A stretch of DNA of 64,000 nucleotides, taken from NCBI RefSeq assembly GCF_057098645.1, contig NZ_CM169472.1; one strand, written 5' to 3'. This document shows, piece after piece, positions 9,001 to 12,000 of this stretch (its first letter is position 1; every line of letters begins with the position of its first letter). The position numbers are program-made.

Positions 9001-12000
9001 AAAGTAATCCACCTGAAAGGGCGGCTTACTTTTCTCTTTTTTTTGTCTATTACAAATGGGAATACGATATGCAACACAACTCATATCGCCGTTGGATAAC
9101 CCTCGCGATAATTAGTTTTAGCGGCGGCGTTAGTTTCGACCTGGCTTATTTACGTTATATTTATCAAATTCCCATGGCGAAATTTATGGGATTCAGCAAT
9201 ACCGAGATAGGTTTAATAATGAGTACCTTTGGTATTGCAGCTATTATTCTTTATGCCCCCAGCGGCGTTATTGCCGATAAATTCTCACATCGCAAAATGA
9301 TTACTTCCGCGATGATCATTACCGGATTACTGGGTCTGTTAATGGCAACGTATCCACCGCTGTGGGTAATGCTCTGTATTCAGGTCGCATTTGCGATAAC
9401 GACGATTTTAATGCTGTGGTCGGTGTCGATTAAAGCCGCATCGTTGCTTGGCGATCATAGCGAGCAAGGGAAAATTATGGGCTGGATGGAAGGGCTGCGC
9501 GGCGTCGGTGTAATGTCGCTGGCGGTGTTTACCATGTGGGTCTTTTCTCGCTTTGCACCGGATGACAGCGCCAGCCTAAAAACGGTCATAATTATCTACA
9601 GTGTGGTTTACATCTTGTTGGGGATTCTGTGCTGGTTTTTTGTTAGCGATAACAACAACCTGCGCAGTGCCAATAACGAAGAAAAACAATCATTCCAGCT
9701 TAGCGACATCCTGGCCGTTTTGCGCATCAGCACCACCTGGTATTGCAGCATGGTGATTTTTGGTGTCTTCACCATCTACGCCATTCTGAGTTACTCCACC
9801 AACTATCTGACCGAAATGTATGGCATGTCGCTGGTGGCGGCGAGCTACATGGGGATTGTGATCAACAAAATCTTCCGCGCGCTGTGCGGCCCACTTGGCG
9901 GCATTATCACCACCTACAGTAAAGTGAAATCCCCTACCCGCGTGATCCAAATCCTTTCCGTACTCGGCCTGCTGGCGTTAACTGCCCTGCTCGTCACGAA
10001 CTCTAACCCGCAATCGGTCGCGATGGGGATTGGCCTGATTTTACTGCTGGGATTCACCTGTTACGCCTCACGCGGGCTGTACTGGGCCTGCCCTGGCGAA
10101 GCAAGAACACCGTCTTACATTATGGGCACCACGGTAGGTATTTGTTCGGTGATTGGATTCCTGCCGGATGTCTTCGTTTACCCCATTATCGGCCACTGGC
10201 AAGACACCCTGCCCGCAGCAGAAGCCTACCGCAATATGTGGCTGATGGGCATGGCGGCGCTTGCCATGGTGATTGTCTTTACCTTTTTGCTGTTCCAAAA
10301 AATTCGTACTGCTGATAGCGCCCCCGCAATAGCTAGCAGCAAGTAAGCCAGGAAAATTACAGGAGAAAAATCATGTCGAAAAAATACATCATAGGGATTG
10401 ATGGCGGAAGTCAGAGCACAAAAGTGGTGATGTACGATCTGGAAGGTAATGTGGTTTGCGAAGGTAAAGGCTTATTGCAGCCGATGCACACGCCAGATGC
10501 CGATACCGCAGAACATCCTGACGACGATTTATGGGCATCATTATGTTTTGCCGGTCACGATTTGATGAGTCAGTTTGCCGGGAATAAAGAAAATATTGTC
10601 GGTATTGGTCTGGGATCCATCCGTTGCTGCCGTGCGTTATTGAAAGCCGATGGCACGCCAGCTGCGCCATTGATTAGCTGGCAGGATGCACGCGTAACGC
10701 GTCCCTACGAACACACTAATCCTGACGTGGCCTATGTCACCTCTTTTTCGGGTTATCTGACGCATCGCTTAACCGGCGAGTTTAAAGACAATATCGCCAA
10801 CTATTTTGGTCAGTGGCCGGTGGATTATAAGAGCTGGGCATGGAGTGAAGATGCCGCAGTCATGGAGAAGTTTAATATCCCCCGTCATATGCTGTTTGAT
10901 GTGCAAATGCCAGGCACTGTTCTTGGACAGATCACACCTCAAGCCGCGCTGGCGACACATTTCCCGACAGGGCTGCCGGTTGTTTGTACCACCAGTGATA
11001 AACCGGTAGAAGCTCTGGGAGCCGGATTACTGGATGATGAAACGGCGGTGATTTCTCTTGGCACCTACATCGCGCTGATGATGAACGGTAAAGCACTGCC
11101 GAAAGATCCGGTGGCGTACTGGCCGATTATGTCTTCTATTCCGCAAACATTGCTGTATGAAGGTTACGGTATTCGCAAAGGCATGTGGACGGTGAGCTGG
11201 CTGCGCGACATGCTAGGCGAGTCGTTAATTCAGGATGCCAGGGCGCAGGATCTTTCACCGGAAGATTTACTCAACAAAAAAGCTTCTTGTGTGCCGCCAG
11301 GCTGTAATGGTCTGATGACGGTGCTGGACTGGCTGACCAACCCGTGGGAACCCTACAAACGTGGGATTATGATCGGCTTTGATTCCAGCATGGATTACGC
11401 ATGGATATATCGTTCGATACTGGAAAGCGTGGCGCTGACGCTGAAGAACAATTACGACAATATGTGTAATGAAATGAATCACTTTGCAAAGCATGTGATC
11501 ATTACTGGCGGCGGTTCGAACAGCGATCTGTTTATGCAAATTTTTGCCGACGTGTTCAACCTTCCGGCACGCCGTAACGCCATTAACGGTTGTGCAAGTC
11601 TGGGGGCAGCGATCAATACGGCGGTAGGTCTGGGGCTATACCCGGATTACGCAACGGCTGTCGACAAAATGGTTCGCGTGAAAGATATCTTTATGCCTGT
11701 TGAGAGCAATGCCAAACGCTACGACGCGATGAATAAAGGTATTTTCAAAGACCTAACCAAACATACTGATGTGATCCTGAAAAAATCGTATGAAGTGATG
11801 CATGGGGAATTGGGGAATGCGGATTCGATCCAGAGCTGGTCGAATGCGTAAGTGAGGAAGACCGGGCGGGAAACAGCCCGGCCTGAACATACCTGAATGG
11901 TTATCCCCGCTGACGCGGGGAACATAATAAAAACTTTAACTAGTTCGGTTTATCCCTGTTTTTACAAGGAATATTAACTACACTCGATGTCTTTAGAATA

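What the first reader, a model, noticed from the sequence alone, without database searches (positions are those of the whole stretch)
11898..11960. Degenerate solitary CRISPR repeat and repeat fragment downstream of ygcE (remnant second array)
About 500 bp from the intact array, immediately after the ygcE stop, lies a mutated single repeat (tggttatccccgctgacgcggggaacat) and, 20 bp later, a fragment cggtttatccc. This is consistent with a second array eroded to a single repeat, followed by its own AT-rich leader-like sequence (11927..12426) that contains another ggggaac fragment near 12338.
Basis: seen in the sequence. Interest (0 to 1): 0.35.

Follow-up and report, generated by a model that had tools for sequence, protein, structure and literature searches.

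The report
Shortened CRISPR2.2 relic beside ygcE
The lone mutated repeat after ygcE is the already-described, inactive "CRISPR2.2" mini-array of E. coli, here in a rarer allele that has lost one 61-bp repeat-spacer unit; it is ordinary and known.

Summary
A degenerate type I-E repeat lies at 11898..11925. Twenty bases later comes cggtttatccc (11946..11956), and a 4-repeat array starts 501 bp further on.

The 11-mer is not a bare fragment. It opens a full-length decayed repeat (11946..11974, 20/29 matches; 0 of 1000 shuffles reach this).

Together these are CRISPR2.2, the small second array of the E. coli CRISPR-II locus (ygcE-queE). [quoted passage not shown]

K-12 and about 4049 of 5426 complete E. 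coli genomes carry R1-S1-R2-S2-R3. The window has R1-S2-R3, a 61-bp deletion with its crossover in the shared GGGAACATAA. This allele occurs in at least 60 genomes, mainly O145:H28. It arose separately in some O157:H7.

The "own leader" idea is not supported:
- The AT-rich 0.45 kb shows no similarity to leaders 2.1 or 2.3, which do resemble each other.
- The spacers never vary.
- E. albertii and E. whittamii use R1 as the terminal repeat of a single array and lack this segment.

Verdict: a real, known, non-functional relic of low interest.

The parts
10373..11851 (+). ygcE (FGGY-family carbohydrate kinase), left flank of the CRISPR-II locus
   Evidence: A 492-aa ORF. It is annotated ygcE in the near-identical O145 genome and in K-12.
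11859..11884 (+). GC-rich hairpin just after the ygcE stop, with no T-run; part of the conserved 'trailer' between ygcE and R1
   Evidence: It folds at -14.7 kcal/mol, z = -2.3. It is nearly invariant across E. coli, E. albertii and E. whittamii. No terminator-like site was called here.
11898..11925 (-). R1: degenerate 28-nt type I-E repeat, the ygcE-proximal (leader-distal) terminal repeat of CRISPR2.2. The deletion crossover lies within 11918..11927 (GGGAACATAA).
   Evidence: Sequence read. It belongs to repeat family D1. Its hairpin is identical in energy to a canonical repeat. The same repeat with the same T deletion is present in K-12, O157, E. albertii and E. whittamii. The strand is assigned from the known orientation of E. 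coli crRNA and from the position of leader 2.3.
11926..11945 (-). S2: the 20-nt second 'invariable spacer' of CRISPR2.2 (aataaaaactttaactagtt)
   Evidence: It is identical in K-12, O157 and the window. [quoted passage not shown]
11946..11974 (-).
   Evidence: It matches the repeat at 20/29, and none of 1000 shuffles reaches that. Seven of its 9 differences are GC>AT transitions. It keeps the repeat hairpin geometry at -7.9 kcal/mol. It is identical in K-12 and E69.
11975..12426 (.). AT-rich segment X (20-35% GC) separating CRISPR2.2 from CRISPR2.3; not demonstrably a leader
   Evidence: Composition is shown. There is no similarity to leaders 2.1 or 2.3. It has no ORF of 60 aa or more. It has no homologue in phages or true plasmids. 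It is present in 4128 of 5426 E. coli genomes. It is absent in E. albertii and E. whittamii.
12323..12337 (.). Repeat-like 15-mer ctggcatggggaact (13/15 to repeat positions 14-28); status uncertain
   Evidence: Its score of 10 equals the maximum of 300 shuffles. It matches at 12/15 in K-12 and about 8/15 in E69. The sequence after it is not leader-like.
12427..12637 (-). CRISPR2.3 array: 4 repeats and 3 spacers (32, 32 and 31 nt); the terminal repeat at 12427 is degenerate
   Evidence: All four repeats form the canonical hairpin.
12638..12975 (-). Leader 2.3, the functional leader of CRISPR2.3, abutting queE
   Evidence: Its first 70 nt resemble leader 2.1 (z = 5.2 for K-12 and 4.2 for O145). 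It is 88-96% conserved in E. albertii, E. whittamii and E69. The literature names leader 2.3.
12976..13647 (-). queE (ygcF), right flank of the CRISPR-II locus
   Evidence: A 223-aa ORF. It is annotated queE in matching genomes.

Best explanation
The feature is CRISPR2.2, the small, decayed and inactive second array of the type I-E CRISPR-II locus that lies between ygcE and queE in E. coli.

The common allele is R1 - S1 (32 nt) - R2 - S2 (20 nt) - R3, followed by about 0.45 kb of AT-rich DNA and then CRISPR2.3 with its leader. The window carries a shorter allele, R1 - S2 - R3. It has lost one 61-bp unit (S1 plus R2). The most likely cause is replication slippage or homologous recombination between the direct repeats R1 and R2, with the crossover inside the 10 nt they share (GGGAACATAA, window 11918..11927).

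The array is a relic. It acquires no spacers, lacks the leader-proximal motifs shared by the two working I-E leaders, and has no demonstrated role.

Shown: homology, the deletion and its boundaries, its recurrence, spacer invariance, and lack of leader similarity. Inferred: the deletion mechanism and the lack of function.

Origin is unresolved. I favour this account: R1 is the ancestral terminal repeat of a single Escherichia array, and the AT-rich segment arrived later in the E. coli lineage, cutting the trailer end off from its leader.
For: **Literature.**
- The CRISPR-II locus holds CRISPR2.2 and CRISPR2.3 'separated by 0.5 kb' (PMC3903273).
- Leaders are named only for 2.1 and 2.3.

**Homology and the deletion.**
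- K-12 has R1-S1-R2-S2-R3 at the same place.
- The alignment shows the window lacks exactly S1+R2, with flanks otherwise identical.

**Population, among 5426 complete genomes.**
- 4049 carry R1-S1-R2, and 4033 of the matching genomes are at least 99% identical to the K-12 query, so no spacer turnover is seen.
- 4128 carry the AT-rich segment.
- All 60 best rows for the window junction are single-piece 101-nt matches. They are O145:H28 and a few other strains at 99-100%, and O157:H7 at 98%.

**Recurrence.** O157 strain 133 has the same deletion on the O157-specific R1 variant (gctgGcgcgggg), which is also seen in the undeleted O157 OK1.

**Another deletion allele.** E69 lost R2+S2 instead.

**Leader test.** Leader 2.1 against leader 2.3 over the first 70 nt gives z = 5.2. 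The sequence after R1 or R3 against either leader gives z = -1.0 to 0.7.

**Outgroups.**
- E. albertii and E. whittamii have R1, with the same T deletion, as the terminal repeat of one array next to leader 2.3.
- Non-Escherichia genera have no CRISPR between ygcE and queE.

[quoted passage not shown] 2013, as cited in PMC7390953).
Against: - Lack of function is inferred, not measured. R1 keeps a perfect Cas6e-type hairpin.
- The closest genome has a complete cas I-E operon 24 kb away, so processing of a read-through transcript cannot be excluded.
- One promoter-like site on the - strand (12317>12288) points toward R3 and R1. The number of such sites is not above shuffles.
- The polarity of the AT-rich segment (gain in E. 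coli versus repeated loss elsewhere) rests on a few outgroup genomes. Loss by repeat-repeat recombination is easy.
- The count of single-unit alleles is an estimate: at least 60, and about 79 by subtracting.
Confidence: 0.9

Rival explanations
1. First reader's model. CRISPR2.2 was once an independent array with its own leader. The AT-rich stretch 11927/11975..12426 is that leader, now decayed.
For: - The stretch lies on the correct side: arrays here are transcribed on the - strand, so a leader sits at higher coordinates.
- It is as AT-rich as leader 2.3 (27.7% versus 29.6% GC).
- It directly abuts R3.
- It holds one promoter-like site on the - strand.
Against: - It has no detectable similarity to leader 2.3 or 2.1, over the full length or the first 70 nt. 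Those two leaders are significantly alike.
- The spacers are invariant in about 4000 genomes.
- The literature names no leader 2.2.
- E. albertii and E. whittamii have R1 without this segment.
- Promoter-like sites are not enriched over shuffles.
Confidence: 0.2
2. Split-repeat model. The AT-rich DNA was inserted inside one repeat. cggtttatccc (repeat positions 1-11) would be the left half and ctggcatggggaact (positions 14-28) the right half of that repeat.
For: The two pieces are in the same orientation, are nearly complementary halves of the repeat, and flank 366 nt of AT-rich DNA.
Against: - The 18 nt after the 11-mer still match the repeat at 9/18 (p about 0.004). Seven of the 9 differences across the 29-mer are GC>AT transitions, so a whole repeat sits at 11946..11974.
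- The right 'half' only equals the best of 300 shuffles. It is weaker in K-12 (12/15) and in E69 (about 8/15).
- The 89 nt between the right 'half' and the next repeat does not fit a spacer length.
Confidence: 0.07
3. Chance resemblance or an unrelated palindrome, such as a ygcE terminator, that only looks like a CRISPR repeat.
For: R1 is a GC-rich hairpin just downstream of a gene.
Against: - Its identity to the I-E repeat runs over 28 nt, well beyond the stem.
- In many strains the orthologous repeat is continuous with real arrays: L005, L006, E. albertii and E. whittamii.
- It has no T-run, and no terminator was called.
- Shuffles never reach the observed matches.
Confidence: 0.01
4. A retained function. 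R1/R3 would be cut by Cas6e from a read-through transcript, giving an orphan crRNA with the 20-nt S2 guide. Alternatively, the hairpins would stabilise or terminate the ygcE mRNA.
For: - The hairpin geometry is intact in R1 and R3.
- A full cas I-E operon is present in the closest genome.
- R1, S2 and R3 are conserved across E. coli.
Against: - Hairpin retention in R3 is reproduced in 39% of trials by a neutral GC>AT transition model.
- Units are lost freely in several lineages: the window, O157 and E69.
- About 850 genomes lack the region altogether.
- No match for the array spacers or the AT-rich segment was found in phages or plasmids.
Confidence: 0.05

Closest known systems
CRISPR2.2 array of the E. 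coli CRISPR-II locus (ygcE-ygcF/queE); nomenclature of Diez-Villasenor et al. 2010, as used in PMC3903273, PMC4489801 and PMC3737337
   Same: - Same genomic position, orientation and repeat variants (R1 and R3).
- Same 20-nt S2.
- Same 0.5-kb gap to CRISPR2.3.
   Different: The window lacks one of the 'two invariable spacers' (S1) and the middle repeat R2, a 61-bp deletion. This allele is in at least 60 of 5426 complete genomes, mostly O145:H28 and part of O157:H7.
Degenerate terminal (leader-distal) repeat of a CRISPR array
   Same: - R1 is the last repeat before the flanking gene.
- Its leader-distal end is mutated (first base changed, one T lost), while the hairpin is intact.
- In E. albertii, E. 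whittamii and E. coli 'CRISPR2.2-3' strains it is literally the terminal repeat of the one array.
   Different: In the window it is cut off from the working array and leader by about 0.5 kb of AT-rich DNA.
CRISPR leaders 2.1 and 2.3 of E. coli type I-E
   Same: The segment after R3 is AT-rich and lies on the leader side of the repeats.
   Different: - It shares no sequence with either leader.
- It lacks the blocks those two share near the repeat (TCTAAA, ATTTTTT, CYACCAAC).
- No spacer gain has ever been seen next to it.
Orphan or cas-less residual arrays in E. coli (for example CRISPR4.1-2 between clpA and infA, with two repeats and one spacer)
   Same: A tiny array that is fixed in content and conserved by descent rather than by activity (PMC5359238).
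   Different: That array has a different repeat type (I-F) and locus. Here the genome probably still has a cognate cas I-E operon.

Membership tests
Type I-E (E. coli 'CRISPR2' type) repeat | A sequence of about 29 nt matching CGGTTTATCCCCGCTG(G/A)CGCGGGGAACWC | tested here: met
   R1 has 2-3 substitutions plus one 1-nt deletion. R3 matches at 20/29, beyond all 1000 shuffles.
Type I-E (E. coli 'CRISPR2' type) repeat | Palindromic core forming a 7-bp stem with a 4-nt loop on the transcribed strand | tested here: met
   R1 folds at -15.1 kcal/mol with the same structure as a canonical repeat. R3 has the same geometry at -7.9 kcal/mol.
CRISPR array (functional) | Regular repeat-spacer periodicity (about 61 nt) over several units | tested here: not met
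   In the window R1 and R3 start 48 nt apart with a 20-nt spacer. K-12 has one regular unit, R1-S1-R2.
CRISPR array (functional) | Spacer content varies between strains (acquisition at the leader end) | tested here: not met
   The R1-S1-R2 query is matched at 80% coverage or more in 4049 genomes, and 4033 of the matching genomes are at least 99% identical. The only variation seen is loss of units. The literature calls the spacers 'invariable'.
CRISPR array (functional) | Cognate cas genes in the genome | tested here: inconclusive
   They are not in the 64-kb window. The 99.8%-identical O145 RM9154-C1 genome has cas3-casABCDE-cas1-cas2 and CRISPR2.1 about 24 kb upstream.
E. coli CRISPR2.2 | Lies between ygcE and CRISPR2.3, about 0.5 kb from the latter | tested here: met
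   R1 ends at 11925 and CRISPR2.3 starts at 12427. This matches the literature description.
E. coli CRISPR2.2 | Three repeats and two invariable spacers | tested here: not met
   The window has two repeats (R1, R3) and one spacer (S2). S1+R2 are deleted. It is a deletion allele of the same locus, not a different element.
Type I-E CRISPR leader | AT-rich sequence abutting the first repeat on the upstream (transcription) side | tested here: met
   The stretch 11926..12426 is 27.7% GC, and the - strand orientation puts it upstream of R3 and R1.
Type I-E CRISPR leader | Conserved leader-proximal sequence shared by working leaders (needed for Cas1-Cas2/IHF-directed integration, from published work recalled by me) | tested here: not met
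   Leader 2.1 against leader 2.3 gives z = 5.2. The sequence after R1 or R3 against either gives z = -1.0 to 0.7. No full-length similarity was found.
Type I-E CRISPR leader | A promoter driving array transcription | tested here: inconclusive
   One 9/12 promoter-like site lies on the - strand at 12317>12288. The region has 6 sites against 4.4 +/- 2.5 in shuffles. No expression data were available.

The most novel reading that the evidence does not exclude
The 0.45-kb AT-rich segment is not a leader. It would be foreign DNA that entered a single ancestral Escherichia array on the E. coli stem, orphaning its trailer end (CRISPR2.2). The orphaned repeats may still be transcribed by read-through and cut by Cas6e, yielding a fixed short-guide (20-nt) crRNA with some housekeeping or regulatory role. 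That would make this an example of an array split by insertion with co-option of the stranded units.
Probability: 0.05. Interest if true: 0.4.

Novelty: already known. Interest (0 to 1): 0.08.

Why it matters
It matters little for biology.

It has three practical uses:
- The 61-bp deletion allele (R1-S2-R3) is a simple lineage marker for O145:H28 and for a subset of O157:H7. It also shows that the 'invariable' CRISPR2.2 does vary, by unit loss.
- Automatic annotation misses both this relic and the 4-repeat CRISPR2.3 array in the closest genome.
- The outgroup comparison gives a testable polarity for how the locus came to hold two arrays.

Tried and rejected
1. **Rfam.** Scans of 11000..14000 (E-value mode) and of the whole window (gathering mode) gave no CRISPR-repeat or sRNA family at the site. 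The only hits there were chance ones: sR51 inside ygcE, and Chlorobi-1 on an array repeat.

2. **The AT-rich segment as a leader.** Local and global alignments to leader 2.3, K-12 leader 2.1 and O145 leader 2.1 were not above shuffles.

3. **A leader remnant at 12338..12426.** I tested whether 12323..12337 plus the following 89 nt is a repeat-leader junction remnant. No similarity was found.

4. **Split-repeat insertion model.** It is disfavoured because a whole decayed repeat sits at 11946..11974.

5. **Selection for the R3 hairpin.** Random substitution keeps all 7 pairs in 1.4% of trials, but a GC>AT transition-only model does so in 39%. The idea was dropped.

6. **A mobile source for the AT-rich segment.** Nothing was found in phages. 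The only 'plasmid' hits are mislabelled chromosomes.

7. **Protospacers for the three CRISPR2.3 spacers in phages.** Only repeat-driven hits to records that are themselves arrays were found.

8. **An exact count of single-unit alleles.** A second junction query failed to separate the alleles, because BLAST pieces were joined differently on the two strands. I report a lower bound and a subtraction estimate instead.

9. **A fuzzy-regex repeat scan** missed the degenerate repeats and was replaced by direct reading and alignment.

10. **Diez-Villasenor et al. 2010** is not held in the library. Its content is cited through later papers of the same group.
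Full report
**Where the window comes from and how it is laid out.** The window is E. coli chromosome. The ygcE-queE intergenic region is 99.8% identical to E. coli O145 strain RM9154-C1.
- ygcE is at 10373..11851 (+) and queE at 12976..13647 (-).
- A type I-E array of four repeats lies between them at 12427..12637. The search found 4 matches with up to 3 mismatches, against 0.00 expected from shuffles.
- On the + strand the repeat reads CGGTTTATCCCCGCTGGCGCGGGGAACTC. From established knowledge of E. coli crRNA, this is the reverse complement of the transcribed repeat.
- The array is therefore read on the - strand, from the AT-rich leader at 12638..12975 next to queE.

- tggttatccccgctgacgcggggaacat is at 11898..11925, 46 nt after the ygcE stop.
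- cggtttatccc is at 11946..11956, 20 nt later.
- ctggcatggggaact is at 12323..12337.
- The repeat finder groups R1 with the array repeats.
- R1 folds into the same 7-bp/4-nt hairpin, at the same -15.1 kcal/mol, as a canonical repeat.
- The loop G>A in R1 is a natural variant of the repeat rather than damage (consensus in PMC3737337; E69 array repeats).
- The real lesions in R1 are at its leader-distal end: the first base is changed and one T is lost.

**The 'fragment' is a whole, decayed repeat.**
- The 29-mer at 11946..11974 (cggtttatccctgtttttacaaggaatat) matches the repeat at 20/29. The best of 1000 shuffles of 11926..12426 is 17.
- Given the exact 11-mer, the next 18 nt match at 9/18, p about 0.004.
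- Seven of its nine differences are GC>AT transitions.
- It keeps the repeat's hairpin geometry.
- That retention is not evidence of selection. A transition-only decay model keeps all seven pairs in 39% of trials.

**What it is.** The literature describes this exactly.
[quoted passage not shown] - K-12 shows the full form: R1, a 32-nt S1 (aagttcgacaacttaaaaaatgataacaagtc), R2 (cggtttatccccgctgatgcagggaacat), a 20-nt S2 (aataaaaactttaactagtt), and R3. The AT-rich stretch, CRISPR2.3, leader 2.3 and queE follow.
- The window has R1-S2-R3. It lacks S1 and R2, a 61-bp deletion.
- R1 and R2 share GGGAACATAA. The window keeps R1-specific bases up to 11917 and R2-context bases from 11928, so the crossover lies in 11918..11927.
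- I infer slippage or recombination between the two direct repeats as the cause.
[quoted passage not shown] 2013, as cited in PMC7390953).

**How common the allele is, among 5426 complete E. coli genomes.**
- 4049 carry R1-S1-R2 over at least 80% of the query, and 4033 of the matching genomes are at least 99% identical. The spacers are indeed invariable.
- 4128 carry the AT-rich stretch.
- 3396 cover at least 80% of the whole window intergenic region, and about 850 have no match at all.
- For a 101-nt query across the window's junction, all 60 best rows are single-piece, 101-nt matches. They comprise 29 at 100% (O145:H28 and a few others), 2 at 99%, and O157:H7 strains at 98%.
- The short allele is therefore in at least 60 genomes. 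Subtracting one search suggests about 79. A second query meant to sharpen this count did not separate the alleles.

**The deletion has recurred.**
- O157:H7 strain OK1 has the full form with an O157-specific R1 (gctgGcgcgggg).
- O157-type strain 133 has the 61-bp deletion on that same R1 variant.
- The window has the deletion on the gctgAcgcgggg variant.
- A divergent lineage labelled E. coli E69 has lost R2+S2 instead, giving R1-S1-R3.

**Is 11927..12426 a leader?** It is AT-rich (27.7% GC, against 29.6% for leader 2.3) and lies on the correct side. Nothing else supports the idea.
- The first 70 nt of leader 2.1 (K-12 or O145) and leader 2.3 resemble each other (z = 5.2 and 4.2), sharing TCTAAA, ATTTTTT and CYACCAAC blocks. 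The sequence after R1 or after R3 resembles neither (z = -1.0 to 0.7).
- Full-length local alignments are not above shuffles.
- Promoter-like sites are not enriched: 6 against 4.4 +/- 2.5.
- There are only short ORFs.
- The stretch has no homologue in phages or in true plasmids.
- The authors who named these arrays name leaders only for 2.1 and 2.3.

**Origin.** I fetched ygcE loci from one genome per species.
- Citrobacter, Enterobacter, Klebsiella, Raoultella and other genera have ygcE and queE 40-110 bp apart, with no repeats. The CRISPR-II locus is therefore Escherichia-specific.
- E. albertii has R1, with the same T deletion, then two spacers and two repeats, then leader 2.3.
- E. whittamii has R1 fused directly to leader 2.3.
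- Neither species has the AT-rich stretch.
- Some E. coli strains look the same (L005, L006).
- The AT-rich stretch is present in E. coli and, at 77% identity, in E69.

The simplest reading is that R1 is the ancestral degenerate terminal repeat of a single array. The AT-rich DNA was then gained in the E. coli lineage, stranding R1-S1-R2-S2-R3 away from the leader. Loss of the stretch by recombination between repeats is easy, however, so the opposite polarity is not excluded.

A split-repeat variant would make 11946..11956 and 12323..12337 the two halves of one repeat. It is disfavoured because a whole repeat sits at 11946..11974 and the second piece is weak.

**Function.** None is shown.
- The closest genome has a complete cas I-E operon and CRISPR2.1 about 24 kb upstream of ygcE, outside the window.
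- Cas6e could in principle cut a read-through transcript at the R1 and R3 hairpins.
- Against a role: units are lost freely, many strains lack the locus, and the conservation fits simple descent.

**Verdict.** The 'remnant second array' reading is right and matches a feature described since 2010. The 'own leader' part is unsupported. The only modest addition is that the supposedly invariable CRISPR2.2 has deletion alleles. The window's allele marks O145:H28 and arose separately in part of O157:H7. Interest is low.

Noticed in passing
window 12427..12637: The CRISPR2.3 array has only 4 repeats and 3 spacers. The terminal repeat carries 3 mismatches, the second repeat has a loop G>C change, and the leader-proximal spacer is 31 nt. 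RefSeq annotation of the near-identical O145 genome lists no CRISPR feature here. No phage protospacer was found for the spacers.
   Followed up: partly
window 12323..12337: ctggcatggggaact matches repeat positions 14-28 at 13/15, in the same orientation as the arrays and inside the AT-rich stretch. Its score equals the best of 300 shuffles. It is weaker in K-12 and E69. It is either chance or a last trace of another repeat.
   Followed up: partly
window 11859..11884: A GC-rich hairpin directly after the ygcE stop is almost invariant from E. albertii to E. coli, but it has no T-run. It is possibly a ygcE mRNA 3' structure.
   Followed up: no
L011 5520..5615 (E. coli E69, CP089930.1): This is a third CRISPR2.2 allele, R1-S1-R3 (R2+S2 lost), with an R1 that has not lost the T. 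The adjoining AT-rich stretch is only 77% identical to the window, while ygcE and leader 2.3 are about 94% identical.
   Followed up: partly
L010 5700..5970 (Escherichia sp. MOD1-EC7003): An array repeat is interrupted after gctaacgcg by unrelated DNA, probably an insertion element. R1 in this genome is truncated to tggttatccccc.
   Followed up: no
L013-L038, L088 (Citrobacter, Enterobacter, Klebsiella, Raoultella and others): ygcE and queE are convergent neighbours 40-110 bp apart with no repeats, so the whole CRISPR-II locus is an Escherichia-specific insertion. Klebsiella spallanzanii (L038) has an I-E-type array about 2.5 kb beyond queE.
   Followed up: partly
public collections: Three 4.8-4.9 Mb E. 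coli chromosomes are filed as plasmids in PLSDB. Several short records filed as 'phage', and one Salmonella contig in the phage set, are really CRISPR arrays. Both can give false mobile-element hits.
   Followed up: no
window 34964..35323, 53504..53709, 56724..56766, 58194..58486: Rfam hits at gathering level elsewhere in the window are CsrB (-), GcvB (+), ES036/CssrF (-) and three tandem tRNAs (+), as expected for this part of the E. coli chromosome.
   Followed up: no
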